Source: a virus. From it: a DNA stretch of 26,613 nt. Numbering within the stretch: the stretch's first letter is position 1; each line of letters opens with the position of its first letter. The notes under the pieces are model-generated. The model was not told where the DNA came from. It saw only the letters and a program-made list of their open reading frames with translations, and made no database searches. Of this stretch, positions 1 through 26,429 are shown piece after piece. Both the position numbers and the translations under genes were made by a program. Location of the stretch: positions 1-26,613 of the IMG/VR virus record IMGVR_UViG_3300045988_150395; one strand, 5' to 3'.

Positions 1-45
1 AACTTAAATCAACTACTATTAACGGAAACCTATCCGTTACTGGGA
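1..45 (+). repeat. R element copy 1 (45 bp, aacttaaatcaactactattaacggaaacctatccgttactggga); encodes (Q)LKSTTINGNLSVTG
   Basis: Identical 45-mer occurs five times (1, 383, 823, 1205, 1645). Confidence 0.85.
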
Positions 46-389
46 ATATCTCATGTCCTGGATTAAAAATATCTAATTTCGGGACAATGACTTATAATTA
101 TAGCGGATTAAGTCCACTAGGAGGAAATTATTGTTATTGGAATGATTATTTTTTATATGCACATATAGCATTTCAATTTCCAAGCAATATTCCAAGTGGA
201 ACTTTATTAATGACATTTCCAACTTCAACAACTGCAAAGCTAGATAATGTAGGATTTTGCGGTTTTAATAACTCAACAGGAATACAACACATTGTAGCAT
301 TTAATTTTATTGGAAATAAAATGTCTATGAATACAAATAGACCTCAAGCAGGTAACTTTAGTTTTGATATAATTTTACCTAGAACTTAA
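1..389 (+). CDS. Cassette A1, 5'-truncated by the window edge (codon start at nt 3). Constant leader ..LKSTTINGNLSVTG plus variant-A C-terminal domain (NISCPGLKISNFGTMTYNYSGLSPLGGNYCYWNDY...FSFDIILPRT); hypothetical variable protein
   Basis: In-frame continuation of the same reading frame as the 816..1211 copy. Stop TAA at 387-389 lies inside R copy 2. Confidence 0.6.
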   Translation, partial: LKSTTINGNLSVTGNISCPGLKISNFGTMTYNYSGLSPLGGNYCYWNDYFLYAHIAFQFPSNIPSGTLLMTFPTSTTAKLDNVGFCGFNNSTGIQHIVAFNFIGNKMSMNTNRPQAGNFSFDIILPRT

Positions 390-427
390 ATCAACTACTA
401 TTAACGGAAACCTATCCGTTACTGGGA
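383..427 (+). repeat. R element copy 2; contains the TAA stop of cassette A1 in frame 0 and the LKSTTINGNLSVTG codons in frame +1
   Basis: Exact 45-bp match to copy 1, then diverges (g428 vs a46). Confidence 0.85.
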
Positions 428-774
428 GTTTTACTAAAAACGACACATGGTCGGGTCATATTAATTGTAACTCTGGTTTTACAGTTATAGTTAATTTTTT
501 TAAAATAGGTAATTTAGCTATCGGAACTTTTGATTTTACTACTCAAAGTGGAAAAACTATTCCAGCCTGGACTTGGACTAGACTTTGCCCTGCGGGGACT
601 ATACCAGTTAACTTTAGACCTAAATCAAGTAATAAAGATATGACTATTTCTTTACAAGAAGCAGGAGCAGGTAAAGTTGGGTTTAATATTGATGGAAGTA
701 TTGATATAAACTGCTATAAAGCATTGGGAGCAAAATATGAAGGCGGCATGCAAGTCATTTATATGGTAGAGTGA
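385..774 (+). other. Silent cassette B1. Intact 129-codon ORF in the +1 frame relative to A1, beginning with the R-encoded LKSTTINGNLSVTG then SFTKNDTWSGHINCNSGF...GGMQVIYMVE, stop TGA 772-774. No start codon or RBS of its own
   Basis: Open frame from R copy 2 to the TGA. Clear paralog (shared motifs IPAWTWT, CPAG.IP, FRP, ISLQ, GAG, DGSI, QVIY) of the expressed cassette C. Confidence 0.55.
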
Positions 775-815
775 GATATTCCAATTTTTTAGAGATAAAA
801 AGGAGGAAAATTTAC

Positions 816-1211
816 ATGGCGCAACTTAAATCAACTACTATTAACGGAAACCTATCCGTTACTGGGAATATCTCATGTCCTGGATTAAAAATATCTAATT
901 TCGGGACAATGACTTATAATTATAGCGGATTAAGTCCACTAGGAGGAAATTATTGTTATTGGAATGATTATTTTTTATATGCACATATAGCATTTCAATT
1001 TCCAAGCAATATTCCAAGTGGAACTTTATTAATGACATTTCCAACTTCAACAACTGCAAAGCTAGATAATGTAGGATTTTGCGGTTTTAATAACTCAACA
1101 GGAATACAACACATTGTAGCATTTAATTTTATTGGAAATAAAATGTCTATGAATACAAATAGACCTCAAGCAGGTAACTTTAGTTTTGATATAATTTTAC
1201 CTAGAACTTAA
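816..1211 (+). CDS. Cassette A2, 131 aa: MAQLKSTTINGNLSVTG plus variant-A domain; hypothetical variable small protein
   Basis: RBS aaaggagg 8 nt upstream of ATG 816. Identical to A1. The ORF-track start at 771 is a GTG overlapping the B1 stop, so ATG 816 is preferred. Confidence 0.7.
   Translation: MAQLKSTTINGNLSVTGNISCPGLKISNFGTMTYNYSGLSPLGGNYCYWNDYFLYAHIAFQFPSNIPSGTLLMTFPTSTTAKLDNVGFCGFNNSTGIQHIVAFNFIGNKMSMNTNRPQAGNFSFDIILPRT
823..867 (+). repeat. R element copy 3 (directly after ATG GCG C of cassette A2)
   Basis: Exact 45-bp match. Confidence 0.85.
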
Positions 1212-1249
1212 ATCAACTACTATTAACGGAAACCTATCCGTTACTGGGA
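1205..1249 (+). repeat. R element copy 4 (stop of A2 / head of silent cassette B2)
   Basis: Exact 45-bp match. Confidence 0.85.
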
Positions 1250-1596
1250 GTTTTACTAAAAACGACACATGGTCGGGTCATATTAATTGTAACTCTGGTT
1301 TTACAGTTATAGTTAATTTTTTTAAAATAGGTAATTTAGCTATCGGAACTTTTGATTTTACTACTCAAAGTGGAAAAACTATTCCAGCCTGGACTTGGAC
1401 TAGACTTTGCCCTGCGGGGACTATACCAGTTAACTTTAGACCTAAATCAAGTAATAAAGATATGACTATTTCTTTACAAGAAGCAGGAGCAGGTAAAGTT
1501 GGGTTTAATATTGATGGAAGTATTGATATAAACTGCTATAAAGCATTGGGAGCAAAATATGAAGGCGGCATGCAAGTCATTTATATGGTAGAGTGA
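1207..1596 (+). other. Silent cassette B2 (identical to B1); +1 frame, no start codon, stop TGA 1594-1596
   Basis: Exact copy of B1 within the 822-bp duplication. Confidence 0.55.
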
Positions 1597-1637
1597 GATA
1601 TTCCAATTTTTTAGAGATAAAAAGGAGGAAAATTTAC

Positions 1638-2033
1638 ATGGCGCAACTTAAATCAACTACTATTAACGGAAACCTATCCGTTACTGGGAGTTTTAATAGG
1701 AATTATAGTTGGAGTGGCAATTTTACTTGTAATTCTGGTTATCGTGCATCTGGTTATTTATGGAGAATGGGTAATTTAGTTATTGGTACTTTTACTTTTG
1801 CTACAAATAGTGGGATAAGTATACCAGCTTGGACTTGGACTACAATTTGTCCTGCTGGAGCTATTCCAGCTAGCTTTAGGCCAAATGTGAATAGAGGTCA
1901 ATATATTTCTTTACAAGGTGTTGGAGCTGGACAGATAAATTTTAATGCAGATGGAAGTATTAGTATATGTTGTTATGGAACTTTTGGAGGTCCTTGGGCA
2001 GGAGGATTACAAGTTATTTATTTTGTAGATTAA
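1638..2033 (+). CDS. Cassette C, 131 aa: MAQLKSTTINGNLSVTG plus variant-C domain (SFNRNYSWSGNFTCNSGYRASG...GLQVIYFVD); paralog of the silent B cassettes
   Basis: RBS aaaggagg plus ATG 1638. Roughly 45% identity to the B cassette by eye, with conserved Cys/Trp positions. Confidence 0.7.
   Translation: MAQLKSTTINGNLSVTGSFNRNYSWSGNFTCNSGYRASGYLWRMGNLVIGTFTFATNSGISIPAWTWTTICPAGAIPASFRPNVNRGQYISLQGVGAGQINFNADGSISICCYGTFGGPWAGGLQVIYFVD
1645..1689 (+). repeat. R element copy 5 (head of cassette C)
   Basis: Exact 45-bp match; shares a further 6 nt with the B-type copies before diverging. Confidence 0.85.
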
Positions 2034-2122
2034 AATTAAAAATCTCAATATTTAGAATAAAAAACTAAATGGACTTTTTTCTTATTTTATTGTAATATAT
2101 AAATAAAAAGGAGATACCAAAA

Positions 2123-2401
2123 GTGAGATTACATGCAGGAGATGTAGTTAAACATTTTAAACGAGAAACTCTTTCACAAGAAGAACAGGAAAACACTAAG
2201 AAATATTTATATATAATTTATGATATAGCGGAACACACTGAAACTGGTGAAAAATTAGTAATATATCATAGCTTATATGAACCAATTAAATTATATGCTC
2301 GTCCAATAGATATGTTTATGAGTAGGGTGGATAAAGAAAAATATCCAAACATAAAACAAGAATATAGATTTGAGCTTTTGGAGGATAAGAAAGATGAATA
2401 G
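2123..2401 (+). CDS. DUF1653-like small protein (GTG start)
   Basis: RBS aaaggaga 7 nt upstream of GTG 2123. Sequence pattern HFKRE..YLYIIYDIAEHTETGEKLVIYHSLY..LYARP..MF resembles the DUF1653 family (recalled from memory, not searched). Confidence 0.5.
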   Translation: MRLHAGDVVKHFKRETLSQEEQENTKKYLYIIYDIAEHTETGEKLVIYHSLYEPIKLYARPIDMFMSRVDKEKYPNIKQEYRFELLEDKKDE

Positions 2402-2792
2402 CCTAGATATTTTAAAACAAATTTTTGATGTATGTATTGTACCTTTAATTGCAATTTTAACTTCTTATTTAGTTAGTTACATTCAAGTCCAGAAGGAGCA
2501 ACTAAAGAAAAAGACAGATAATGAGCTATTAAATAAATACATTGATATGGCAGCTAATACTATTGCGGATTGTGTTACTACAACTAATCAGACATATGTA
2601 GAAACTTTGAAAAAGGAAGGTAAATTTGACGAAGAAGCACAGAAAGTTGCTTTCCAGAAAACTTTAAATGCGGTTTTAGCTTTGCTTACTAAAGAAGCTA
2701 AAGATTATTTAACTGAGGCTTATGGAGATTTGAATTTATATTTAACTAATAAAATCGAGTCTACAGTTAATGAGAAGAAAACTTCTAAATAA
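2394..2792 (+). CDS. Hypothetical membrane protein with one N-terminal TM helix followed by a charged coiled-coil region
   Basis: ATG 2394 with GGAGGA 8 nt upstream (track start 2370 is a TTG). Hydrophobic segment ILKQIFDVCIVPLIAILTSYLVSYI. Confidence 0.5.
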   Translation: MNSLDILKQIFDVCIVPLIAILTSYLVSYIQVQKEQLKKKTDNELLNKYIDMAANTIADCVTTTNQTYVETLKKEGKFDEEAQKVAFQKTLNAVLALLTKEAKDYLTEAYGDLNLYLTNKIESTVNEKKTSK

Positions 2793-2803
2793 TATGTTAC
2801 CAA

Positions 2804-2843
2804 AGGGGTAGGTTCTTGAAAAGAGAACCTACCCCTTATTTTG
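2804..2843 (+). terminator. Rho-independent terminator
   Basis: 12-bp perfect stem ggggtaggttct/agaacctacccc with a 7-nt loop, followed by ttatttt. Confidence 0.8.
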
Positions 2844-2937
2844 CGTTATACCAAAATTTTTTTAGAAAAATATTTTGGACTATAGGAGAAAACTGGGCGA
2901 ATGAGATAAAAGATTACCAAAAAATTTTCATATACTT

Positions 2938-3402
2938 ATGAAAGGAAGAGGAGAAAAAGTTAATAGAAAGAAGGTAAGTAAAATGTATCCTAATTACAAT
3001 TATTACCCACCTCGCCAACAGCAACAAATGCAACCGCAACAACCTCAAATTCCTCCTTTTCTTAAAGGTAGACCAGTATCTTCATTAGAAGAGGTTAGGG
3101 CTATTCCAATAGACTTTGATGGTTCTGTTTTTTACTTCCCAGATATAGCCAATAGAAAAATATATACAAAACAAATTAATTTAGATGGGACAGCATTAAT
3201 AAACATGTATGAATTTAAGCCTATTCCAGTAGCACAAGAAACTACTTCTAATGCAAATACAGATACTTTTGTAACTAGAGAGGAATTTGACGAAACAATG
3301 TCAAGAATTAAAGAAATGTTTGCGGCGATGCCGGCTCAAAGTCCGCAACCGGCGCAAAAAGAAGTAACAACTAAGAAACCCGCAGAAATGCCAAAATTTT
3401 AA
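2938..3402 (+). CDS. Hypothetical Q/P-rich protein (YPPRQQQQMQPQQPQIPP low-complexity N-terminus); alternative start ATG 2983
   Basis: Long ORF, first gene after the terminator. Start ambiguous because RBS is weak for both ATGs. Confidence 0.45.
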   Translation: MKGRGEKVNRKKVSKMYPNYNYYPPRQQQQMQPQQPQIPPFLKGRPVSSLEEVRAIPIDFDGSVFYFPDIANRKIYTKQINLDGTALINMYEFKPIPVAQETTSNANTDTFVTREEFDETMSRIKEMFAAMPAQSPQPAQKEVTTKKPAEMPKF

Positions 3403-3414
3403 GGAGGAAACCGC

Positions 3415-3660
3415 ATGAATAACATAAATCCTATGCAATTAATTCAGATGATTAAAGGCGGTCAAAATCCGCAACAACTTATGATGAGTATACTTGAACA
3501 ACAAATGCAAAATACTCCAATGGGAGCTAATCTATTGTCTTTAGCAAAGCAGAATAGAAGTGCAGATATTGAACAAATCGCCCGCAATATATGTAAACAA
3601 AGCGGAAAAGATTTTGATAAGGAATTTAATGCTTTCAAGCAAATGCTTGGGCTTAAATAA
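3415..3660 (+). CDS. Hypothetical small Q/M-rich protein (81 aa)
   Basis: Perfect RBS aaggagg 6 nt upstream of ATG. Confidence 0.55.
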   Translation: MNNINPMQLIQMIKGGQNPQQLMMSILEQQMQNTPMGANLLSLAKQNRSADIEQIARNICKQSGKDFDKEFNAFKQMLGLK

Positions 3661-3684
3661 TAAATTTTAAAGGAGGACATTAAT

Positions 3685-4455
3685 ATGTTCAATAATGCAG
3701 CTAGTGGCTATAGTTTAGCCGATATCGCAGCCGCTACAGGTTCTACCCGCAATGATAATGGTTGGGGCTTTGGTGGCGATGGAGGAGCTTGGTGGATTAT
3801 TATACTTTTCCTTTTCTGTTTCGCAGGATGGGGAGGAAATGGAAATGGTCTCTTTGGAGGCGGTTCCACAGGCTCTGGAATTACTGATGGTTATATTTTA
3901 ACATCAGATTTTGCCAACGTAGAAAGAAAAATTGATGCCGTAAATAATGGTATTTGTGATGGATTTTACGCCATGAATACAGGCATGCTGAATGGATTTG
4001 CTGGTATTAATAATAATATTACACAACAAACTATTGCAGATATGCAGAATACTAATGCTATTAATGCAGGTATTACTAATTTGGGTACTCAGTTACAGCA
4101 ATGTTGCTGCCAGACAAGATACGAAGACGCTCAGAATTTTGCTCAATTAAATTATAATTTAGCAGACCAAGAATGTTCAACTCGTAGAGCTGTTACTGAT
4201 GCGACAAGAGATTTAATGGAAAATCAAAACGCTAATACTAGAAGTGTATTAAGCGCAATTCAAGAAATGCAAACACAGGCACTGCATGATAAGATTACTG
4301 AACTTACAGCTGTTAATTCTGACCTTAAATTCCAAGCTAGTCAAGCAGCTCAGAACAGCTATCTCATCAATGCACTTAATCCTTCACCTGTACCTGCATA
4401 CACAGTTCCTAATCCTTATGCAGGTTATAGAAACTGTGGATGTTCAACTTTATGA
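3685..4455 (+). CDS. Hypothetical protein: Gly/Trp-rich N-terminus with one TM helix (WWIIILFLFCFAGWGG), N/Q-rich coiled-coil-like middle with a QQCCCQ motif, C-terminal CGCSTL
   Basis: Perfect RBS aaaggagga; 256-aa ORF. Confidence 0.6.
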   Translation: MFNNAASGYSLADIAAATGSTRNDNGWGFGGDGGAWWIIILFLFCFAGWGGNGNGLFGGGSTGSGITDGYILTSDFANVERKIDAVNNGICDGFYAMNTGMLNGFAGINNNITQQTIADMQNTNAINAGITNLGTQLQQCCCQTRYEDAQNFAQLNYNLADQECSTRRAVTDATRDLMENQNANTRSVLSAIQEMQTQALHDKITELTAVNSDLKFQASQAAQNSYLINALNPSPVPAYTVPNPYAGYRNCGCSTL

Positions 4456-4524
4456 TTAATTAGTTTGACTACTAGGGAGCCTGCCAGCTCCCTAGATAGT
4501 TAAATTCCTGAAAGGAGACTATTT

Positions 4525-4947
4525 ATGGAACTAACTAGTAATGTAGTACAAACCGTAAACGCAAATGATAATGTTGTATTCATTACAACAAGAATCCCTG
4601 GTAACTGTTCAGTTATTCATACCGAGGGAAGTGGAAATATTAAAATGAGAGGCTTGTCTAATAATCAATGCCGCTCAAGATTCAAAGTAACTTTCACTGG
4701 TAATATTGCAGTTCCAACTGGTGGTACCGCAGGAGCTATCTCATTAACTATTACTATAGATGGTGAGGCAGTTCGTACCGCGCAAATGATTGTAACACCT
4801 GCCGCAGTAGAGCAATATTTTAATGTAGCTTCATGTGTATACATTGACGTACCTACTGGATGCTGCTCAACCGCAGGAGTAACTAATACTTCAACACAAA
4901 CGATTAACGTTCAAAATGCTAATCTTATAGTAGAAAGGGTGGCGTAA
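4525..4947 (+). CDS. Hypothetical small Cys-containing beta-rich protein (140 aa)
   Basis: RBS gaaaggaga; T/V/N-rich composition typical of beta-sandwich proteins. Confidence 0.55.
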   Translation: MELTSNVVQTVNANDNVVFITTRIPGNCSVIHTEGSGNIKMRGLSNNQCRSRFKVTFTGNIAVPTGGTAGAISLTITIDGEAVRTAQMIVTPAAVEQYFNVASCVYIDVPTGCCSTAGVTNTSTQTINVQNANLIVERVA

Positions 4948-4948
4948 T

Positions 4949-5485
4949 ATGCATAGACTTTATGATATGAAAAACTGTTTAATTAGTGCTGCCCAATCTC
5001 AAATGGGAAATCTCCAAGACTGCGATGCTGGAGAGCTTGGCGAAGTAATTGATATGATAAAAGACCTTGAAGAAGCAATTTATTATTGTACAATTACAAA
5101 AGCTATGAATGAAAAAGAAGAAAATAATTCTTCTCAATATCGTATGTATTACAGGGAAAGAGGAGGACAAAATTATGATAATTCCTCTTCATATATTGAC
5201 TATCCTAGAATTGATAAGTATAATGATAAAAGCAATGAACCTTATCATGAAAGAGAATTTCCTTTAGAGATGCGGGATGCGCGTGAGGGCCGTAGTCCAG
5301 TACGTCGCCGCATGTATATGGAATCTAAAGAACTCCACAAGGATAAAGTAACCGCAATGAAAGAACTTGAAGAATATATGCAAGAATTAAGTTCTGACAT
5401 TTGTGAAATGATTGAAGACGCTTCTCCAGAAGAGAAACAATTACTTCAAAAGAAAATTATTGCTTTATCAAATAAAATACAATGA
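4949..5485 (+). CDS. Hypothetical acidic coiled-coil protein (178 aa)
   Basis: Start 2 nt after the previous stop; ATGA overlap with the next gene. Confidence 0.5.
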   Translation: MHRLYDMKNCLISAAQSQMGNLQDCDAGELGEVIDMIKDLEEAIYYCTITKAMNEKEENNSSQYRMYYRERGGQNYDNSSSYIDYPRIDKYNDKSNEPYHEREFPLEMRDAREGRSPVRRRMYMESKELHKDKVTAMKELEEYMQELSSDICEMIEDASPEEKQLLQKKIIALSNKIQ

Positions 5486-5799
5486 TTAAAATAAATGGAG
5501 AAACTTGGAGAATATTCCTAGTTTCTCCTAATCATCCAATTCTATATACTAATGGTTCTTATACACTTGGGGCTTGTGATAATGTTACTCATTCAATTTA
5601 TATTAATGAAAACCTTAATTCTCATAAAATGAAAAAGGTATTATGCCATGAGTTAACACATGCCGCAATGTTTAGTTATGATGTAGAATTAACATTGGAA
5701 CAAGAAGAACTATTAGCAGATTTACTTGCCACTTATGGACAAGAAATTGTTGATATGACAAATGAAATTTTTATTAAATTAAAAAGGAATATTTATTAG
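5482..5799 (+). CDS. Small putative zinc metallopeptidase-like protein (HExxH motif: CHELTHAAMF)
   Basis: ATGA-coupled ORF; single HELTH motif in a 105-aa protein. Confidence 0.5.
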   Translation: MIKINGETWRIFLVSPNHPILYTNGSYTLGACDNVTHSIYINENLNSHKMKKVLCHELTHAAMFSYDVELTLEQEELLADLLATYGQEIVDMTNEIFIKLKRNIY

Positions 5800-5828
5800 C
5801 ATGATTAATAAATATTCCTTTTTTTTAT
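5785..5828. terminator. Bidirectional rho-independent terminator at the convergence point of the plus and minus modules
   Basis: 14-bp stem aggaatatttatta/taataaatattcct, followed by T-runs on both strands (tttttttt on plus; tttttaattt on minus). Overlaps the TAG of 5482..5799 and abuts the TAA of 5829..6257. Confidence 0.7.
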
Positions 5829-6257
5829 TTAATCAGTAATATGTTTTGCTTTTTGTACAACTAAAGCAAATAAACTGTCACCATTATGGTTACCTTTTAA
5901 ACCATTATAAGCATCATGGTCTTCAATACACTGTTGGTATTCTTCTAATGTTATTTCATGGTCTTCAGCTAATAATGCTTGACATTCAGCTATGAATTCT
6001 TTCTTTTGCATTGAAAGAATTCCTTTTCTAAGAGCATCTAATTGTTCTTGTAACTTCTGGTCACCATCTCTTGATTCTTTTTCTATTCCATCATATCGAG
6101 AAAACATATCATTTTTAAGATTTTCATAAAATCTAGCACGTTCAGCATTTTGTTCGTCTTCTTTCATTTTCATATATTTTTTGAAAAAGTATCCACCGCC
6201 TGCAACTATTAAGCCAAAACCAAATTCAACCCAATATTTAATTATAAAGTCTAACAT
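5829..6257 (-). CDS. Hypothetical membrane protein (N-terminal TM, then charged coiled coil), last gene of the minus-strand operon
   Basis: RBS AGGAGG (revcomp of 6262-6270) upstream of ATG 6257. Confidence 0.55.
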   Translation of the reverse strand: MLDFIIKYWVEFGFGLIVAGGGYFFKKYMKMKEDEQNAERARFYENLKNDMFSRYDGIEKESRDGDQKLQEQLDALRKGILSMQKKEFIAECQALLAEDHEITLEEYQQCIEDHDAYNGLKGNHNGDSLFALVVQKAKHITD

Positions 6258-6318: not shown

Positions 6319-6807
6319 TTAAGACCAATCAAACATTTCTGTTTCTTCTTTTACAAAATAATGAGTTCCAATACATATTGCATCAGCTTCATCTTCTGTA
6401 CATTTCAATCCATAAGTAGATTGAACATATGCTTGCGCGTTCTTCTTTTGTTCTGCCCTAACTTTACCCTTAATCTGTAAAGTAGACCGCCATTGTACTG
6501 CTAGAACTGAACTATTAGGCATTTTAGTTTCTGTAAAAAATTCACATAAAACACCAATAACTTCCGCAAGTTTTTTAAATGTTAATACATTATTTCCCGC
6601 ACCATTTTTTAATTGTATATCTTCAAAGATAACTTCATCTACTTCATATTTTTCAATTAATTCCTTAACCTTATTCTTAATATTCATTAATCTTTCACCA
6701 AAATCTTTATCGGTAAAAGTAAAATGTCCATAATCAAGAAGTTTGCCGTCTTCAAAAACGGCAAACCCTGATATTCGACTGCTTTGGTCTAAAGCTAAAA
6801 GTTTCAT
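6319..6807 (-). CDS. ruvC: RuvC-like Holliday junction resolvase (phage type)
   Basis: N-terminal LLALDQSSRISGFAVF (RuvC motif LGIDPGSRxTGYAV), mid-protein acidic EVDEVIFED, C-terminal EADAICIGTHY (RuvC DAxDALAxA..H). Confidence 0.65.
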   Translation of the reverse strand: MKLLALDQSSRISGFAVFEDGKLLDYGHFTFTDKDFGERLMNIKNKVKELIEKYEVDEVIFEDIQLKNGAGNNVLTFKKLAEVIGVLCEFFTETKMPNSSVLAVQWRSTLQIKGKVRAEQKKNAQAYVQSTYGLKCTEDEADAICIGTHYFVKEETEMFDWS

Positions 6808-8488: not shown

Positions 8489-8995
8489 TTATGTCAATTT
8501 TACAAAATCTCCAAGTTCATCTTTTTCATAAATATCTTGATTACTTGAACCACGTAAAGGTAAAGTAATATCTCTTTTATTTTGCTCAAAAGGCCCATCT
8601 ATAAGAACATTAGTAAATCCAAGAATTACTTTAATATAACTATCATTCATTTGATCTAATTCTTTTTTAGTATAACCTGTCCATAAGTAAACCTTTAAAT
8701 CTGGAATTTTAATTTTAAGACAAGATAAAATATAACAAATATCTTCTCTATTTTGCGGGGCTAGGGGTTCTCCCCCTAAAATGCTAAAACTTCTTTGGAT
8801 ACCATTGCTTTTAATTGCATTATAAAGTTCTTCAATTAAAAGATCAACATCTTTTTCATACCCGCCATTAAAATCCCAGGCTTCCGAGTTATGGCACCCA
8901 GGGCAATGTCTATCACAACCCTGAGTGAAGAGAGATACAGTAAAACCAGACTTTGTATTTACAACATCATTTTTAATTATTCCAAAATAATGCAT
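8489..8995 (-). CDS. nrdG: Anaerobic ribonucleotide reductase activating protein (radical SAM)
   Basis: CDRHCPGCHN (CxxxCxxC radical-SAM cluster motif); TAATG overlap with nrdD; typical 168-aa size. Confidence 0.85.
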   Translation of the reverse strand: MHYFGIIKNDVVNTKSGFTVSLFTQGCDRHCPGCHNSEAWDFNGGYEKDVDLLIEELYNAIKSNGIQRSFSILGGEPLAPQNREDICYILSCLKIKIPDLKVYLWTGYTKKELDQMNDSYIKVILGFTNVLIDGPFEQNKRDITLPLRGSSNQDIYEKDELGDFVKLT

Positions 8996-11286
8996 TATTG
9001 TTCTAACCTTCCTATATGTTTTATTCTAAGATTAACTTCATTCTGTTTACCAAGATTAAATGCGGTTTTATAATTACCAGTTAAATAACCAGTTACTCTA
9101 CGTAATTGCTGAATATTTTTACTTCCGCATATTGGACAGCAATCATTAAACTCTCCAGTATAACCACAATCTAAACATGTATCATTAGGTACATTAATTG
9201 CAAAGTAAGGAATATCATGGTCCATAGCATATTGAACGATTTCATCCAAAGCATCTAAGTTATTTTTAACCGCACCATCTAATTCAACATAAGTTATACA
9301 TCCCGCAGAGGAATATCCTGTTAATTGACATTCAATGTCAATTTTTTCAAAAGGAGAAACCTCTTTCCAAACTGGAACATGCATTGAATTAGTAAAGAAA
9401 TCTTTATCACTTACATCTTTAATTACACCATATTTAGCTCTAAATTTCTTAAGCGCAGTATAACAGAGATTTTCGGCTGGAGTATAATATACTCCAAAAT
9501 TAAGTTTATATTTTTCTTTAAATTCCGCACATCTATCTTTAAATAACTGTTCAATCTTTTTAGCTAATTTCATTCCTTCTGGAGTAGTATGGTCTGTACC
9601 AATAAGAATTTGAAGAGCCTCAGCTAAACCTAGTTGACCGACAGCTAAAGTGCCATGTTTAAGTGCGCTTCTAATTCCTTCTTCTGGAATATAACCAGCC
9701 ATAGTTCCATTTTCATACATAAATTTTGCAGAATCCGCAGGTTGAGAACAAATCCAATTAAAACGTTCAATTAACATGTCTTTAGCCTCATGAATCTTTG
9801 TATCTAATAAATCCATAAAAGCATTAATATAATGTTCATCTGTTACACTAAATGGATTACATTTTATATCTAATTCATATTCTTTATCAATTTTTTCTTT
9901 AGCTTCCATTGCTAAAGTAGGCAATATGATAGTTACAGGACAAATATTACCTCGTCCATCTTTCTTCTGGCCGAAACCATTAATATCCCACCCATTGGCT
10001 GTGCGGCAGCCCATAGTCGAGAAGTAAGTAGTCGGATCATCTGGGTCATATCCAGCATTACCGCTCCAATCGCAGTTCGCATAATTTGGATAAAGTCTTG
10101 CCGCAGTTGATTTAAGAGCCAGTCTATATAAATCATAATTTGGCTCTCCTGGTTTACGATTAACACCTTTCATACATTGGAAAATACCACATGGAAAAAT
10201 GCTTGTTTTATGAATTTTACCTACTCCCGCCAAAGAACCTTCAAGTAAAGCCTTAATTACCATTCTTCCTTCTGGAAGAGTACATGTTCCATAATTAATA
10301 GAAGTAAAAGGTAATTGATTACCGCTTCGAGATTGTAATGTATTAAGGTTATGATACATACCTTCAACAGCTTGTTTTGTTTCTTTCTCAGTCATATCAT
10401 AAGCATATTCATATGTTTTTGGATAATTCTCTTTAATATAAGAATCTATAATACTAATTTCTTTTCCAGAAGCTAATAAATTTTTAATATATTTATCTCC
10501 ACGTGCAATATATTTAAACCCTTCAATTAAATGCTTTTTAAAAGATTTTCTTACATATGGAACCGCAGACCAATCAAGGTGAGTAGCAGAAACGCCTCCA
10601 AATTGTTGTAAGCTTTGAAGCTGAAAGAGTACTGCTAAAAGTTGAAAGAATGTACTAATACTATTTGCCGGACGCACATCAGTTTGTCTTGTATTAAAGC
10701 CTTTTTCCATCAAAGGATCTATTGGCAAACTCAAACAGTTATGTGAACCAACAGCATATGAGCCTGCATCATGAATATAAATTTCATTATTCATATGATT
10801 CTCTCTGGATTTCTTAGAAATAATATAATCAAATGCATATTCTTTTGTCATAACTTCTGCGGCTTCGCCTAAACGTCCTCCAAAAGAATGCTCATCTACG
10901 TTAGCATTTTGATTTTGAATATTGCGGGCTTCCAATTTTTCTCTAATTGGCGCAATAAAGACTGCTTCATGCTCACGTTGTACTTCTTGTTTATAACGAT
11001 AACGAATATAAGCTCTAGCTACATCTCTACGTTCAGATTGCATAAGCTCATCTTCTACCATATCTTGAATATCCTCAACTGAAACTGCAGTTGCTTTTTC
11101 TTCATCAAGGTCATACATTGCATCTTCAATTTCTTTGGCAATATCTTTTGCAGTATCATCTTCATAAAGTTGACCATCTACTTCAATTAAGGCTTTATTA
11201 ACTGCATTTATAATTTTTTGTCTATCAAAGGGAACTAAAGTTCCGTTACGTTTTTGTATCTGCAACATAATGTTGTATTCCCCCAT
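8995..11286 (-). CDS. nrdD: Anaerobic (class III) ribonucleoside-triphosphate reductase with N-terminal ATP-cone. Start ambiguous (alternative ATG at 11268)
   Basis: ATP-cone start MLQIQKRNGTLVPFDRQKI; C-terminal Zn ribbon CLDCGYTGEFNDCCPICGS; glycyl-radical motif RRVTGYL. Confidence 0.9.
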   Translation of the reverse strand: MGEYNIMLQIQKRNGTLVPFDRQKIINAVNKALIEVDGQLYEDDTAKDIAKEIEDAMYDLDEEKATAVSVEDIQDMVEDELMQSERRDVARAYIRYRYKQEVQREHEAVFIAPIREKLEARNIQNQNANVDEHSFGGRLGEAAEVMTKEYAFDYIISKKSRENHMNNEIYIHDAGSYAVGSHNCLSLPIDPLMEKGFNTRQTDVRPANSISTFFQLLAVLFQLQSLQQFGGVSATHLDWSAVPYVRKSFKKHLIEGFKYIARGDKYIKNLLASGKEISIIDSYIKENYPKTYEYAYDMTEKETKQAVEGMYHNLNTLQSRSGNQLPFTSINYGTCTLPEGRMVIKALLEGSLAGVGKIHKTSIFPCGIFQCMKGVNRKPGEPNYDLYRLALKSTAARLYPNYANCDWSGNAGYDPDDPTTYFSTMGCRTANGWDINGFGQKKDGRGNICPVTIILPTLAMEAKEKIDKEYELDIKCNPFSVTDEHYINAFMDLLDTKIHEAKDMLIERFNWICSQPADSAKFMYENGTMAGYIPEEGIRSALKHGTLAVGQLGLAEALQILIGTDHTTPEGMKLAKKIEQLFKDRCAEFKEKYKLNFGVYYTPAENLCYTALKKFRAKYGVIKDVSDKDFFTNSMHVPVWKEVSPFEKIDIECQLTGYSSAGCITYVELDGAVKNNLDALDEIVQYAMDHDIPYFAINVPNDTCLDCGYTGEFNDCCPICGSKNIQQLRRVTGYLTGNYKTAFNLGKQNEVNLRIKHIGRLEQ

Positions 11287-18554: not shown

Positions 18555-20348
18555 TTAAAAATAATATTCAGTGCTTCCAACTATTTGATAGTCTTCAATT
18601 AAAATTTGAGGAGTAATTTCTCCACCCCAAGCATTTTTTGCACATTTACCAACCAAATCAATTTTTACACTTCCGTTTTCAGAACGTAAAGCTTCATACT
18701 CTTCTTCAGAAGCTTTAAATTTCATTATGTCAACTCCGCAAGGCAATTTAATTCTAATCGTTGGATTTTTGTCTTTTGATAAAAGCTGAATGTTATCTTT
18801 AGTAACATTTAATCCTTTAATACCAACATATGCTCTATCAAAATCTTGTCCCCACAAATCATTAAATCCAGAAATATCTAAGATTATTTGTTTATCTCGT
18901 GGAGTTAGGTTCCTCTTAAATAAATAATCAACCTTATAAATTGGGTCACTAGGATATTGAGAAAGTAATTTATCTGATTGTTCAATAAATGTATCTATTT
19001 TATTAGCATCAAGTGAACATCCTGCTGCATTTTGATGACCTTGAACCCAATTAACACCATCACATTGCTCAAGTGCTGTCTTAAAATCCATAAGTCCGTT
19101 TTTAGTATATCCTCTCATAGAACCTTCATAAGTACCATGGTCAGTTCTAGTAAGTACCATACAAGGTCTTTGATATTTAGCCATATGTTTATTTGCTACT
19201 AAACCTCTTATGGTTCCTTCTACTTCTTTACTTTCCAGAAGAAAAGTAAGTATTTTATGGTCAAGAAGGTTCTCTGCCTTAATCTTTTTATCAAGAAATA
19301 ACATCGCATTATCTTCTAGGCGAGTTTGTCTATTTTTAATATTTCCTATTACTCGTACAGCTTGCAAGACTAAATCTTCTTGTTTACCAGTCTCTTTTCC
19401 TCTTTTAATTTCTGGAATTTTTTTATGTGCCTTATATTCAAGCATTGAATCAAATATTAAGTACTTTTCATCTAATTCACCAGTTCTTGTTGTAGCATTT
19501 ACAAAAGGAACAATGAAAAATGCTGCCCCAATATCTGTACAAGCTTGAGTTTCATATGCACTAGCATAATCTGTTTTTCCTAATGGAAAACCATTTTTAT
19601 CTAGCATATATTCAATAAAAGGATTATGGATATTATCTTCATTTAAACCTTTCATAATAATATGCTTAGTTTCAAATGAATGCAAACTCATCATATCACC
19701 AATATTAGCTAAAGCTACAAGGTCAATTAGCTGATTTGCATAATCAGTATTTAAAATAGAATCAATATATCTACAGAATTGCCAAGTAACACCAGCTCCG
19801 CAGAATTCCTTATTTGGATAATCAGAAAGCTGATTATTAATTATAATAGCATCATCACTGATTTTGTCAGCCAAATGATGATCTAAGCAAACAACTTCTA
19901 TACCATTATCCTTTAATATCTTATGATATTCATAATCATTACTTCCTGCATCTGGTAATAATACTAATTTATATTCTGATTTTGCAAATTTATCATAACA
20001 ATCTTCTAGTCCATGCTGTTTGCCCGAATGCATAAAATAATCTAAATTATTTTCAACCCAAGTAGGAAAAAAATAATGAAGATAATTAATAAGAATCGCC
20101 GCACTGCAATATCCATCACAATCACAATCTACTACGATTACAGCTTTTTGCTTATTAGCTACTGTTGTAATTATGTAAGATAAAGCTTGATATAAATTAT
20201 TTTCACCTAAAAGAGTAAAATCATTAATATCATCATCTGTTGTATTAAGATAATGATAAAACTCTTCTGGCGGAATTCCTCGATTTAATAAAATCTGTTC
20301 AATAGTAGAATATTGTTCTTGTACACTATTTAATAATTCTAATCTCAT
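18555..20348 (-). CDS. recJ: RecJ-like ssDNA exonuclease (DHH phosphoesterase superfamily)
   Basis: DHH motifs I VIVVDCDCDGYCSAAIL, II LVLLPDAGSND, III VVCLDHHL; 597 aa. Confidence 0.75.
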   Translation of the reverse strand: MRLELLNSVQEQYSTIEQILLNRGIPPEEFYHYLNTTDDDINDFTLLGENNLYQALSYIITTVANKQKAVIVVDCDCDGYCSAAILINYLHYFFPTWVENNLDYFMHSGKQHGLEDCYDKFAKSEYKLVLLPDAGSNDYEYHKILKDNGIEVVCLDHHLADKISDDAIIINNQLSDYPNKEFCGAGVTWQFCRYIDSILNTDYANQLIDLVALANIGDMMSLHSFETKHIIMKGLNEDNIHNPFIEYMLDKNGFPLGKTDYASAYETQACTDIGAAFFIVPFVNATTRTGELDEKYLIFDSMLEYKAHKKIPEIKRGKETGKQEDLVLQAVRVIGNIKNRQTRLEDNAMLFLDKKIKAENLLDHKILTFLLESKEVEGTIRGLVANKHMAKYQRPCMVLTRTDHGTYEGSMRGYTKNGLMDFKTALEQCDGVNWVQGHQNAAGCSLDANKIDTFIEQSDKLLSQYPSDPIYKVDYLFKRNLTPRDKQIILDISGFNDLWGQDFDRAYVGIKGLNVTKDNIQLLSKDKNPTIRIKLPCGVDIMKFKASEEEYEALRSENGSVKIDLVGKCAKNAWGGEITPQILIEDYQIVGSTEYYF

Positions 20349-24731: not shown

Positions 24732-25245
24732 TAATATCAACCTCCTCATCTAAAAAATTAAATTTCTTTTTTGGTTTTTTAATTTTTCTTTGTGGCTGAG
24801 GGATTGTTATATTAATAGTTTTAGGTATATAATTTTCAATATTTACTTCTGAATTTCTCTTATTAACGCTCCACATCTTATAATAATAATTCTTAGCTTC
24901 TTCATATACATATGGAACTATTCCTATTGAACGACTAGCTTCATCTTCAATAGCATTACCCTGTACTTCATAAAAATATATTAATGCTTTATGAATACCA
25001 GAATATGTAAAACCTAATTCAGTTACATATTTTTTAATAAGCAAATTTGTTCTTGCAAAATCATATTTACCATTATATAAAGTATATAAATATTTGTTTA
25101 AATTTGCTTTATCAACTTCTGTTTGATTTATTGGTCCCTCTGGACATTTTTTATGAGCATATCTTCTTGAACTTACTTGGATAAAAGGAACTTTATCCCT
25201 ATCAAATTGTCGCCCACAATTAACACATTTACAAGGATGTGCCAT
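24721..25245 (-). CDS. Hypothetical Zn-ribbon protein (N-terminal CxCxxC..HxxC), possible replication initiation / helicase-loading accessory. Start ATG 25245 preferred over 25260
   Basis: GAGGAAAA RBS inside the longer ORF favours ATG 25245; overlaps the dnaB start. Confidence 0.45.
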   Translation of the reverse strand: MAHPCKCVNCGRQFDRDKVPFIQVSSRRYAHKKCPEGPINQTEVDKANLNKYLYTLYNGKYDFARTNLLIKKYVTELGFTYSGIHKALIYFYEVQGNAIEDEASRSIGIVPYVYEEAKNYYYKMWSVNKRNSEVNIENYIPKTINITIPQPQRKIKKPKKKFNFLDEEVDINGK

Positions 25246-25339: not shown

Positions 25340-26299
25340 TTACAGCAAATCTTCTTTAATTTCAGAAACAATTAAATAAATAATCTCTGCTTGCTCTCTC
25401 GTAGCATCAGATACTTTCTTTCCTTTTCCTAGGTATTTATCTACAATTTCTGTAATTTTTTCGCTGTTTTTTGTATCTCTCTGCATCAGCTCTCCAACTA
25501 CAGTCTGAAATTCTGCCATAAGGGCATCAAAATCATAAGTTGGTGCTTCTGTTTTCTCCATTTTCTCTTCTGTCACAAATTTATTATCATGCTCTGCGGC
25601 TTCTTTATCAATAGCTGCATGAATGGTATCAACAAGAGCATTATAATTCATTTCAATACAATCAGGAATATATTTAAAACGACAACCGCACTCAATAAAT
25701 CCTGTTCTATCCCTTAAAACAAGAATAGAATTTTCACTACCATTCTGTTTTGCATATCCATAAATATCAGCCATACCACCAATAATCTCTCTTGTGGAAT
25801 TGGAAAGTGCCGGACGAATATTTGTTACATTACCATTGTCATCTTTTGCTTCCTTATCATGTCCAAGAAAGAAAACTGCATAGCCAAGCTGTGTAAGTCC
25901 TCTAAATACTTCATTAAATTCATCTTTAAACTTAGACCATCCTTTTCCATAACCAAGATCTCCAAGCTCTTCAATTCCATTTTGCTGACAAATATATTTT
26001 TTACATTTATCTGCGGCAACATCAATAGTATCAACTACAACTGCTTTATAAACCTCTTTTACTTCTGGCTTTTTAAGCTCTCTATAAACCTGTTTCATTT
26101 CACCCCAAGTTGTAATATCCTGAGCCATTACACCAGGAAGAGCATTATATCCTGCTTCAAAAGCTAAAAGTAAAGCACCTTCCATCTGAGTTGCTAAAGT
26201 AGTTTTTCCAGTCTTATATCCGCCATAAAGATAAGTTATATACCCACTGAGGTCTTTACTAACTTTATGTGGTTGAATTCCTAATAAATTAATTCCCAT
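25340..26299 (-). CDS. Sak4-like / AAA_24-family RecA-fold ATPase (candidate recombination protein). Start ATG 26299; the track TTG at 26317 is part of the RBS
   Basis: Walker A GGYKTGKTTLA, Walker B VVVDTIDV, family-typical GYGKGW; RBS GAGGGAG. Confidence 0.6.
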   Translation of the reverse strand: MGINLLGIQPHKVSKDLSGYITYLYGGYKTGKTTLATQMEGALLLAFEAGYNALPGVMAQDITTWGEMKQVYRELKKPEVKEVYKAVVVDTIDVAADKCKKYICQQNGIEELGDLGYGKGWSKFKDEFNEVFRGLTQLGYAVFFLGHDKEAKDDNGNVTNIRPALSNSTREIIGGMADIYGYAKQNGSENSILVLRDRTGFIECGCRFKYIPDCIEMNYNALVDTIHAAIDKEAAEHDNKFVTEEKMEKTEAPTYDFDALMAEFQTVVGELMQRDTKNSEKITEIVDKYLGKGKKVSDATREQAEIIYLIVSEIKEDLL

Positions 26300-26429
26300 T
26301 CTTTTTATCTCCCTCAATTATATATGCTACTTTATCTATTAATTTTTTCAATATCAATAAAATTTTTATCGACATAAAAATCTTTCATTATTTTAATATC
26401 TTTTTCTTTTAAAATACCACAGTCATTAA

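What the first reader, a model, noticed from the sequence alone, without database searches (positions are those of the whole stretch)
1..1644. Perfect 822-bp tandem duplication: recent unequal crossover at R, copy-number heterogeneity, or assembly artefact
The two units are identical over all 822 positions, including the non-coding spacer, in a region otherwise diverging rapidly (A vs B vs C). A perfect duplicate implies a very recent duplication, ongoing gene conversion, or repeat mis-assembly. R-R unequal crossing over would generate exactly this A-B-A-B arrangement. The window starts inside a unit, so further copies may lie upstream.
Basis: seen in the sequence. Interest (0 to 1): 0.6.

Follow-up and report, generated by a model that had tools for sequence, protein, structure and literature searches.

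The report
Duplicated phage receptor-binding cassette array
The perfect 822-base repeat is real and sits in a gut phage's host-recognition locus, where a crossover between 45-base repeats has placed a normally start-less receptor-binding gene behind the locus's only translation start, so it looks like a way of switching or widening host range.

Summary
Window 1-822 equals 823-1644 with 0 mismatches, and identity runs 867 nt, which is one unit plus one 45-nt repeat R. R occurs five times, always in direct orientation.

The window is 100% identical over its first 12,033 nt (all that could be compared) to a 178.5-kb human-gut phage scaffold. There the array has exactly two units, and an upstream gene X directly precedes the first R.

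In at least eight fetched relative contigs the order is X|R-A|R-B|S-R-C. Only the cassette after the 48-nt spacer S (ribosome-binding site plus ATG) has a start codon. Start-less A and B stay intact and show dN/dS of 0.1-0.6, like expressed C.

The duplication is what an R3×R1 unequal crossover would produce, and it gives A a start codon. Relatives show sister events: a perfect 437-nt duplication, and S-R-A|R-C with C left start-less.

Copy number and within-sample heterogeneity cannot be settled from short-read assemblies. Expression, silence and host-range effects are inferred, not shown.

The parts
1..822 (+). Duplication unit 1, made of R-A, R-B and spacer S.
   Evidence: Identical to 823-1644.
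823..1644 (+). Duplication unit 2, made of R-A, R-B and spacer S.
   Evidence: Identical to 1-822. It corresponds to the single unit of relative L001 9186-10007.
1..45 (+). R copy 1. R is a 45-nt repeat encoding (Q)LKSTTINGNLSVTG.
   Evidence: In the source scaffold it is preceded by the stop codon of gene X plus TT, and an in-frame TAA closes the R reading frame directly upstream.
383..427 (+). R copy 2, in front of cassette B copy 1.
   Evidence: The stop codon of A (TAA, 387-389) lies inside this R in another frame.
823..867 (+). R copy 3, directly behind ATGGCGC. This S|R|A junction is the novel junction created by the duplication.
1205..1249 (+). R copy 4, in front of cassette B copy 2.
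1645..1689 (+). R copy 5, behind the second ATGGCGC and in front of C.
3..389 (+). Cassette A copy 1. The reading frame is open for 128 codons, but it has no start codon in the source scaffold.
385..774 (+). Cassette B copy 1. It has 129 codons, no start codon, and a TGA stop at 772-774.
775..822 (+). Spacer S copy 1, with AGGAGG at 801-806 and ATG at 816-818 followed by GCGC.
   Evidence: Read directly from the sequence. The last 20 nt (GAGGAAAATTTACATGGCGC) are identical upstream of every R that has a start codon in the relatives.
816..1211 (+). Complete gene for A-type protein (131 aa). It has a start codon only because unit 2 follows spacer S.
   Evidence: The same 131-aa protein was gene-called on scaffold_109 and on scaffold_38 of another sample.
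1207..1596 (+). Cassette B copy 2, with no start codon.
1597..1644 (+). Spacer S copy 2, with AGGAGG at 1623-1628 and ATG at 1638.
1638..2033 (+). Gene for C-type receptor-binding protein (131 aa).
2123..2401 (+). DUF1653 gene, which follows the cassette array in the window's close relatives (context only).
2370..2792 (+). Holin gene. It marks the start of the lysis module, so the array lies at the distal end of the tail module.
   Evidence: phrog_13712, E 2.4e-35.
2803..2837 (+). First terminator-like hairpin downstream of the array.
25340..26317 (-). Sak4-like single-strand-annealing protein. It is a candidate catalyst of R×R recombination.
   Evidence: phrog_124, E 8.9e-50.
18555..20348 (-). 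RecJ-like single-strand exonuclease.
   Evidence: E 1e-136.
6319..6807 (-). RuvC-like Holliday-junction resolvase.
   Evidence: E 4.5e-21.

Best explanation
**What the locus is.** It is the host-recognition locus of a large, low-GC phage from the human gut. The phage's DNA polymerase is distantly related to those of SPbeta-like Bacillus phages.

The locus holds alternative receptor-binding-protein cassettes. Each cassette starts with the same 45-nt sequence R. R encodes the conserved N-terminal peptide, which I infer is the anchor that docks the protein on the tail. A variable domain of about 115 aa follows.

**Ground state.** The usual order is X|R-A|R-B|S-R-C. Only the cassette directly behind the 48-nt spacer S (AGGAGG plus ATGGCGC) has a start codon. 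A and B are therefore unexpressed archive copies. This is inferred from the sequence.

**The event.** A crossover between R in front of C on one genome copy and R in front of A on another would produce X|R-A|R-B|S-R-A|R-B|S-R-C. Such a crossover could occur within replicating concatemers. This product is exactly the window.

The event adds one perfect 822-bp unit and puts A behind S. The phage should then make both A-type and C-type receptor-binding proteins.

The phage's own Sak4-like, RecJ-like and RuvC-like recombination genes are the likely catalysts. This is inferred.

**Expected dynamics (inferred).**
- The duplication is expected to be unstable. It could revert through the 822-bp homology.
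- It could also lose B-S-R to give S-R-A|R-C, which is the arrangement seen in relative L004.
- The array would then behave as a reversible, duplication-based switch of host range.
For: **The repeat**
- It is perfect and bounded by R.
- Relative L001, 99.5% identical, has one unit: X|R-A|R-B|S-R-C.
- The source scaffold, 100% identical over the part compared, has two units flanked by X.

**Other R-bounded rearrangements in relatives**
- L004 (about 95% identical, another sample) has X|R-A|R-B|S-R-A|R-C. Its two R-A-R copies are identical and C is start-less.
- L009 has an independent perfect duplication of period 437. The identity run of 482 nt equals 437+45. It places a cassette behind S.
- An A-type protein with the MAQ start also occurs in a third lineage: P0022, with 10 member sequences.

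**The ground state is common**
- The canonical order is seen in L001, L011, L012, L013, L015 and L020-22.
- In the P0011 lineage, 17 further contigs were reported as having similar gene neighbourhoods but were not shown.

**Start-less cassettes are kept functional**
- They are open for 126-129 codons in every lineage except one.
- The chance of an open frame of that length is about 9e-5 per frame. None of 20,000 shuffles of B was open.
- dN/dS is 0.19-0.48 for A and 0.11-0.61 for B, against 0.15-0.74 for C where dS exceeds 0.1.

**R evolves in concert within a genome**.

**Function of the proteins**
- The model of C has pLDDT 87.9.
- Foldseek's top hits are the TP901-1 and p2 receptor-binding proteins, probability 1.0.
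- The array lies between tail-fibre genes and the holin.

**Recombination genes are present in the window**.
Against: - All evidence comes from short-read metagenome assemblies.
  - A perfect repeat longer than a read is what an assembler produces when it goes once round a loop in its graph. The true copy number could be higher, or mixed within the sample.
  - A mixture of L001-type and L004-type genomes could also be mis-threaded into this path.
- B has never been seen behind S in two protein libraries, although it is conserved. The switch idea needs B to be expressed at least sometimes.
- No transcript, protein or host-range data exist.
- The head domain of A has no detectable homology to B or C (hhalign E 0.64), and its model is poor (pLDDT 58). 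Its role as a receptor-binding domain rests only on the shared anchor and its position.
- The canonical order is the consensus in most samples, so rearranged forms are uncommon.
Confidence: 0.6

Rival explanations
1. Assembly artefact. The sample holds genomes with one unit, or a mixture of arrangements. The short-read assembler threaded the R-A/R-B/S loop twice, so no molecule actually carries the 822-bp tandem duplication.
For: - The two copies are perfectly identical, spacer included.
- The unit (822 nt) is longer than a short read.
- The scaffold names point to a metaSPAdes-type pipeline. This is my reading of the names, not a tool result.
- The other perfect tandem duplication, L009, comes from the same pipeline.
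- Many contigs of this phage group break inside the array.
- Some contigs close on themselves.
- The window begins exactly at the branch point where the X|R and S|R contexts diverge.
Against: - Any such loop still needs k-mers or reads that join S through the 45-nt R into A, so the S|R|A junction must exist physically.
- The same junction is found in L004 in a non-tandem arrangement that loop traversal cannot create.
- It is also found in a third lineage assembled by both MEGAHIT and metaSPAdes.
- The minimal path through the graph that uses the S|R|A edge is the two-unit array.
Confidence: 0.22
2. The duplication is real but functionally neutral. R copies are simply short homologies that occasionally misalign. 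A and B are decaying remnants of earlier receptor-binding-gene exchanges, and placing A behind S has no adaptive meaning.
For: - L001 carries a nonsense codon in A (TCA to TAA).
- B has never been seen with a start codon.
- The canonical order dominates in sampled genomes.
Against: - Start-less A and B are intact in all other lineages, despite dS of 0.2-0.6 and a chance of about 9e-5 for an open frame.
- Their dN/dS is well below 1 and similar to that of expressed C.
- R is homogenised within genomes.
- A reached the expression site at least three times independently.
Confidence: 0.1
3. The start-less cassettes are translated where they stand by an unconventional route, such as frameshifting from X or A, re-initiation, or a non-AUG start. 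On this view they are not silent, and the duplication only changes gene dosage.
For: Purifying selection acts on A and B, although they lack start codons in the stable canonical order.
Against: - An in-frame TAA lies immediately before R at the X|R junction, and at the A|R junction in L009 and L011.
- A 10-nt insertion/deletion changes the reading-frame relation between A and R-B between lineages, +1 in the window and +2 in L011 and L009.
- No AGGAGG-like site or ATG/GTG/TTG precedes or lies within R in frame.
Confidence: 0.06

Closest known systems
Receptor-binding proteins of lactococcal siphophages: TP901-1 ORF49 (BppL) and p2 ORF18
   Same: - They are small proteins with an N-terminal attachment part and a C-terminal beta-barrel head.
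- The gene lies at the distal end of the tail module.
- Natural and engineered exchange of heads at the junction is known. PDB entries 3d8m and 3da0 are TP901-1/p2 chimeras.
   Different: - There is no sequence-level similarity: no Pfam hit and no PDB hit by sequence.
- The attachment part here is only about 17-20 residues.
- Several heads are stored in tandem, most without a start codon.
[quoted passage not shown]
   Same: Two receptor-binding-protein genes lie side by side, and both proteins are present in the virion. The window likewise has two complete genes, A and C.
   Different: In Phi4.2 both are ordinary fixed genes. Here the second gene arises from a perfect tandem duplication that gives a start codon to an otherwise start-less cassette, and close relatives lack it.
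Silent-cassette antigenic variation: Neisseria pilE/pilS, and trypanosome VSG duplicative activation with upstream repeats (from my own knowledge)
   Same: There is one expression site and several archived variable copies without expression signals. A short conserved sequence at the cassette border serves as the recombination handle. Activation happens by duplicating a silent copy into the expression site.
   Different: - This is a phage locus, and the cassettes are contiguous and in the same orientation.
- The silent copies keep the conserved 5' coding segment.
- The observed products fit simple unequal crossover or deletion, not only non-reciprocal conversion.
- No dedicated machinery such as a G4 sequence has been identified.
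Tandem gene amplification ('gene accordions'): S. aureus (PMC7360770); poxvirus K3L and T4 gene 37 duplications that expand host range (Tétart et al. 1996) from my own knowledge
   Same: Head-to-tail identical units arise at short homologies. They differ in copy number between near-clonal genomes and are expected to be unstable. In T4 the duplications affect the tail-fibre adhesin and widen host range.
   Different: Here the main effect is not dosage or a longer protein. A different, previously start-less coding cassette is placed behind the single ribosome-binding site and ATG.
Invertase-driven tail-fibre switches and shufflons: Mu Gin/G segment, P1 Cin, R64 Rci (from my own knowledge)
   Same: A constant N-terminal coding part is joined to alternative C-terminal parts by DNA rearrangement. 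A neighbouring long anchor-bearing protein in relative L009 even matches Pfam Shufflon_N.
   Different: All repeats here are direct, not inverted. No site-specific recombinase was found in the window or in the 9 kb upstream in relatives. The products are duplications and deletions, not inversions.

Membership tests
Lactococcal-phage-type receptor-binding protein (TP901-1 BppL / p2 ORF18 head fold) | C-terminal head domain with the beta-barrel fold shared by these proteins. | tested here: met
Lactococcal-phage-type receptor-binding protein (TP901-1 BppL / p2 ORF18 head fold) | The same fold in cassette A. | tested here: inconclusive
   The model of A has pLDDT 58.3. hhalign of A heads against B/C heads gives E 0.64.
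Lactococcal-phage-type receptor-binding protein (TP901-1 BppL / p2 ORF18 head fold) | Sequence membership in a curated family. | tested here: not met
   No Pfam or PHROG family matches A, B or C. A profile of the family finds no PDB sequence below E 0.68.
Lactococcal-phage-type receptor-binding protein (TP901-1 BppL / p2 ORF18 head fold) | Gene located at the distal end of the tail/baseplate module, before the lysis genes. | tested here: met
   Upstream in relatives lie a 1289-1309-aa fibre protein (Phage_fiber_rpt) and X. Downstream lie DUF1653 and the holin.
Lactococcal-phage-type receptor-binding protein (TP901-1 BppL / p2 ORF18 head fold) | Trimer docked on the baseplate through its N-terminus; binds a host surface saccharide. 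| not testable with these tools
   This needs a virion structure and binding assays.
Silent-cassette variation system (pilE/pilS-like logic) | One expression site, plus variable copies that lack expression signals. | tested here: met
   Only the R copies preceded by S (AGGAGG…ATGGCGC) have a start codon. The X|R and A|R junctions have none, and mostly carry an in-frame stop.
Silent-cassette variation system (pilE/pilS-like logic) | Silent copies are kept functional rather than decaying. | tested here: met
   Frames are open for 126-129 codons in all lineages but one. dN/dS is 0.11-0.61.
Silent-cassette variation system (pilE/pilS-like logic) | Different cassettes occupy the expression site in closely related genomes. 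| tested here: met
   C is expressed in L001. A and C are expressed in the window and L005. Only A is expressed in L004. A position-2 cassette is expressed in L009. B has never been found there.
Silent-cassette variation system (pilE/pilS-like logic) | Switching occurs at measurable frequency within a clonal population. | not testable with these tools
   This needs reads or long reads, or a cultured phage.
Tandem gene amplification ('gene accordion') | Identical head-to-tail units joined at a short pre-existing homology. | tested here: met
   The 822-nt units are identical, and the junction lies in the 45-nt R.
Tandem gene amplification ('gene accordion') | Copy number differs between near-identical genomes. 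| tested here: met
   L001 (99.5% identical) has one unit and the window has two.
Invertase switch / shufflon | Inverted repeats flanking the invertible segments. | tested here: not met
   All five R copies are on the + strand, and no copy within 3 mismatches lies on the minus strand.
Invertase switch / shufflon | An adjacent site-specific recombinase gene. | tested here: not met
   No recombinase family was found in the window ORFs scanned or in the precomputed Pfam marks for genes in the 9 kb upstream in relatives. The rest of the roughly 178-kb genome was not examined.
Diversity-generating retroelement | Template and variable repeat differ almost only at adenines; a reverse transcriptase lies nearby. 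| tested here: not met
   Substitutions between B and C occur at all four bases, with A accounting for 49 of 112. No reverse transcriptase was found in the window.

The most novel reading that the evidence does not exclude
A clade of large human-gut phages carries a built-in host-range switch. It is an array of start-less receptor-binding-head cassettes, each prefixed by the same 45-bp anchor-coding handle.

The cassettes are activated, singly or together, by duplicative recombination into the single translation-start site, and silenced again by deletion. No invertase or reverse transcriptase is involved.

This would be a phage counterpart of silent-cassette antigenic variation. The 822-bp duplication in the window would be one switch intermediate caught in an assembly.
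Probability: 0.45. Interest if true: 0.8.

Novelty: new variant of a known kind. Interest (0 to 1): 0.62.

Why it matters
Phages are known to change host range in a few programmed ways: invertible tail-fibre segments, diversity-generating retroelements, and carrying several fixed receptor-binding proteins.

A conserved archive of start-less receptor-binding cassettes, activated by duplication at a shared 45-bp handle, would be a further route. It would need only general recombination functions.

This would explain how abundant gut phages keep several host specificities in reserve. It would also explain why assemblies of such phages break or loop at this locus.

It offers a natural design for engineering phages with exchangeable specificity.

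It is directly testable. Junction-specific read counts in existing gut metagenomes would give switching frequencies.

Tried and rejected
- **Tandem Repeats Finder** found nothing because the period exceeds 500.
- **No close isolated phage.** A megablast of 1-6000 against 50,697 phage records gave no match.
- **Exact-pattern scans.** A 29-nt piece of R found nothing in IMG/VR. A shorter degenerate pattern found two loci in IMG/VR and three in metagenomes, but none in 185,579 reference genomes. There is therefore no host or prophage clue.
- **Programmed frameshift or readthrough** from X or A into the next cassette was rejected. In-frame stops lie before R, and the frame relation varies between lineages.
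- **Invertase or shufflon switching** was rejected. All repeats are direct and no recombinase was found.
- **Diversity-generating retroelement** was rejected. Substitutions are not adenine-specific and no reverse transcriptase was found.
- **A as a distant homologue of B and C.** The first MAFFT alignment suggested 35% identity, but most of that comes from the shared anchor. Profile comparison of the heads alone shows no homology.
- **Structure of A** was not usable (pLDDT 58).
- **Gene X** has no Pfam family and no significant PDB sequence match; the best is E 0.02 to an unrelated enterotoxin.
- **Literature searches** for silent or start-less receptor-binding cassettes in phages found nothing relevant. 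The library is incomplete, so this is weak evidence of novelty.
Full report
**1. The observation**

Window 1-822 and 823-1644 are identical at every position. Identity at offset 822 continues for 867 nt, which is one unit plus a further copy of a 45-nt repeat.

That repeat, R (AACTTAAATCAACTACTATTAACGGAAACCTATCCGTTACTGGGA), occurs exactly at 1, 383, 823, 1205 and 1645. All copies are on the + strand, with none expected by chance. Tandem Repeats Finder missed the array only because its longest period is 500.

**2. Anatomy, read from the sequence**

Each unit consists of R-A (382 nt), R-B (392 nt, with a TGA stop at 772-774) and a 48-nt spacer S. S carries AGGAGG (801-806), and nine bases further on ATGGCGC, which runs straight into the next R.

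R is read as (Q)LKSTTINGNLSVTG. The complete genes are therefore:

| Gene | Coordinates | Length | Product begins |
|---|---|---|---|
| A | 816-1211 | 131 aa | MAQLKSTTINGNLSVTG… |
| C | 1638-2033 | 131 aa | MAQLKSTTINGNLSVTG… |

B is open for 129 codons in the R frame but has no start codon. The stop codon of A (TAA) lies inside the following R, in another frame.

After the second unit comes S-R-C. C is about 77% identical in DNA to B. The head of A is unrelated (section 5).

**3. Where the window comes from**

PHROG scans show a phage.
- The minus strand, 5829-26317, is a replication and nucleotide-metabolism module. It includes a PolIII-alpha-like polymerase, NrdD/NrdG, RecJ-like and RuvC-like proteins, primase, a DnaB-like helicase and a Sak4-like annealing protein.
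- On the plus strand, the array is followed by a DUF1653 gene, a holin and a terminator-like hairpin.
- The polymerase is 37% identical to those of SPbeta-like Bacillus phages.
- No isolated phage is close in DNA.

The window's first 12,033 nt, which is as far as the fetched loci reach, are 100.000% identical to ENA ERZ28572079 scaffold_109 (178,502 nt; loci L005 and L006).

In that scaffold the array is fully embedded. A 310-aa gene (X), its TAA stop and the bases TT directly precede the first R. Upstream of X lie a 1289-aa fibre protein and other large tail proteins. The assembly therefore holds exactly two units, with none further upstream.

The first copy of A has no start codon there. An in-frame TAA lies directly before R.

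**4. Relatives**

Homologues of C and A exist only in metagenomes. Two of the fetched contigs are labelled human gut metagenome, and no homologue has a Pfam family.

| Locus | Relation and source | Arrangement |
|---|---|---|
| L001 | 99.5% identical | X\|R-A\|R-B\|S-R-C (one unit); A carries a TCA→TAA nonsense change |
| L011, L012, L013, L015, L020-22 | other lineages | Same canonical order |
| L007 | more distant | X\|R-A\|S-R-C |
| L004 | about 95% identical, another sample, 181,750-nt scaffold | X\|R-A\|R-B\|S-R-A\|R-C; the two R-A-R copies are identical; C has no start codon |
| L009 | another sample | X\|R-A\|R-C''\|S-R-C''\|S-R-D; perfect duplication of period 437, identity run 482 = 437+45 |
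| P0022 (L016, L017) | third lineage, 10 member sequences | A-type protein with the MAQ start |

In the P0011 lineage, 17 further contigs were reported as similar but not shown.

D in L009 is a 355-aa protein with the same N-terminal peptide, followed by Shufflon_N and Peptidase_S74 matches.

The two P0022 contigs come from MEGAHIT and metaSPAdes assemblies. Both close on themselves with a period of 468 nt.

Every one of these arrangements can be derived from the canonical order by crossovers between R copies:
- R3×R1 gives the window.
- R3×R2 gives the L009 type.
- Deleting B-S-R from the window type gives L004.

**5. What the cassettes encode**

The AlphaFold2 model of C is confident (pLDDT 87.9). 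Residues 1-20 are less well defined, and the rest is all-beta.
- Foldseek against the PDB puts the receptor-binding proteins of lactococcal phages TP901-1 and p2 at the top (E 5e-5, probability 1.0). Adenovirus fibre knobs follow.
- There is no similarity at sequence level.

The head of A shows no homology to the B/C heads (hhalign E 0.64), and its model is poor. A shares only the 17-residue N-terminal peptide.

I infer that the R-encoded peptide is the common docking element and that the heads are alternative specificity domains. This is not shown.

**6. Are the start-less cassettes junk?**

No.
- They are open for 126-129 codons in all lineages except L001's A.
- In this composition, the chance of 128 stop-free codons is about 9e-5. 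None of 20,000 shuffles of B was open. The other two frames of each cassette hold 5-21 stops.
- Nei-Gojobori dN/dS is 0.19-0.48 for start-less A and 0.11-0.61 for start-less B. Expressed C gives 0.15-0.74 where dS exceeds 0.1.

They are therefore under purifying selection.

Translation in place looks unlikely.
- The R frame is closed by TAA directly upstream at X|R, and at A|R in L009 and L011.
- A 10-nt insertion/deletion changes the frame relation between A and R-B between lineages.
- No ribosome-binding site or start codon is available.

R copies within one genome share the same variants, which indicates ongoing exchange between them.

**7. Mechanism proposed**

The array is an archive of receptor-binding cassettes with one translation-start site.

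Recombination between direct R copies on sister genomes or concatemers duplicates the segment between them. That puts an archived cassette behind S. Deletions between R copies, or across the long duplicated homology, remove cassettes again.

The window is the R3×R1 product, and it should express both A and C.

The phage's Sak4-like annealing protein, RecJ-like exonuclease and RuvC-like resolvase are plausible catalysts. From general knowledge, 45 bp is within the range such systems use.

*Shown:* the sequence arrangements, their distribution among relatives, the selection on the cassettes, and the fold of C.

*Inferred:* silence of A and B, the docking role of R, the recombination pathway, and any effect on host range.

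**8. Caveats**

All sequences are short-read assemblies.
- A loop in the assembly graph is normally output with the minimal number of passes. Two units may therefore stand for two or more, or for a mixed population.
- A mixture of L001-type and L004-type genomes could also be threaded this way.
- Contigs of this group often break inside the array.

What an artefact cannot easily produce is the S|R|A junction itself. That junction recurs in a non-tandem context (L004) and in another lineage under two assemblers.

Look-ups also hint that the same A and C alleles exist without the extra ATG-A gene. The exact silent-A ORF is on four long contigs, while the exact 131-aa A is on only two. The other contigs were not shown, so this is only an indication.

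B has never been found behind S. That is a gap in the switch model.

**9. Comparison with known systems**

The proteins work like TP901-1/p2-type receptor-binding proteins, and C shares their fold. They belong to no curated sequence family.

Having two receptor-binding genes recalls the dual systems of some 936-group phages (PMC6315561).

The dynamics resemble tandem 'gene accordions' (PMC7360770). From memory, they also resemble the T4 gene 37 duplications that widen host range.

The logic of one expression site plus start-less archive copies with a conserved handle resembles silent-cassette antigenic variation in bacteria and trypanosomes.

Invertase switches, shufflons and diversity-generating retroelements were tested and do not fit.

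Literature searches found no description of start-less receptor-binding cassettes in phages.

**10. Verdict**

The artefact alternative remains open for copy number only.

The larger point is the cassette array and the start-codon capture. I rate this a new variant of known kinds of system, with interest 0.62.

Noticed in passing
L016 1-531 and L017 1-523: Two short contigs from different samples and different assemblers (MEGAHIT and metaSPAdes) close on themselves with a period of 468 nt. The unit is a complete A-type gene plus an 86-nt spacer containing S. This suggests tandem arrays, or circles, of a whole A gene in another lineage.
   Followed up: partly
L009 2458-3331: A second, independent perfect tandem duplication, of period 437 (R-C'' plus S). 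The identity run of 482 nt equals 437+45. It gives a start codon to a copy of the cassette that otherwise stands start-less at position 2.
   Followed up: yes
L009 3325-4392: A 355-aa protein begins with the same MAQLKSTTINGNLSVTG peptide. It then matches Pfam Shufflon_N (32 bits) and the Peptidase_S74 chaperone domain. The R-encoded anchor is therefore also used by a longer, fibre-type protein.
   Followed up: partly
L004 17747-20396, compared with window 8995-11286: In relative L004 the NrdD gene is split in two by an ORF with a GIY-YIG endonuclease domain, which is probably a homing-endonuclease or intron insertion. The window has an intact 763-aa NrdD.
   Followed up: no
window 1873-2025: 22 of the 58 differences between the window and the 99.5%-identical L001 fall in the 3' half of C. 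This points to allelic or mosaic exchange within the receptor-binding head.
   Followed up: partly
window 22098-24749 (minus strand): An 883-aa protein has two ATPase-like parts. The N-terminal part matches PHROGs annotated as terminase large subunit, and the C-terminal part is DnaB-like, although the gene sits inside the replication module.
   Followed up: no
L005 8251-9183 (gene X) with window 1638-2033: X (303-310 aa) followed by a 131-aa receptor-binding protein mirrors the order of BppU (about 299 aa) and BppL (163 aa) in TP901-1. That gene order is recalled from memory. X has no Pfam or significant PDB sequence match, and its fold was not tested.
   Followed up: partly
window 1: The window begins exactly at the first base of R, although the identical public scaffold continues upstream. 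This could be chance, or a property of how the window or another assembly of this phage was cut.
   Followed up: no
L001 9458 (A cassette): The only broken cassette seen has a TCA→TAA nonsense change in start-less A. It occurs in the genome that is otherwise 99.5% identical to the window.
   Followed up: yes
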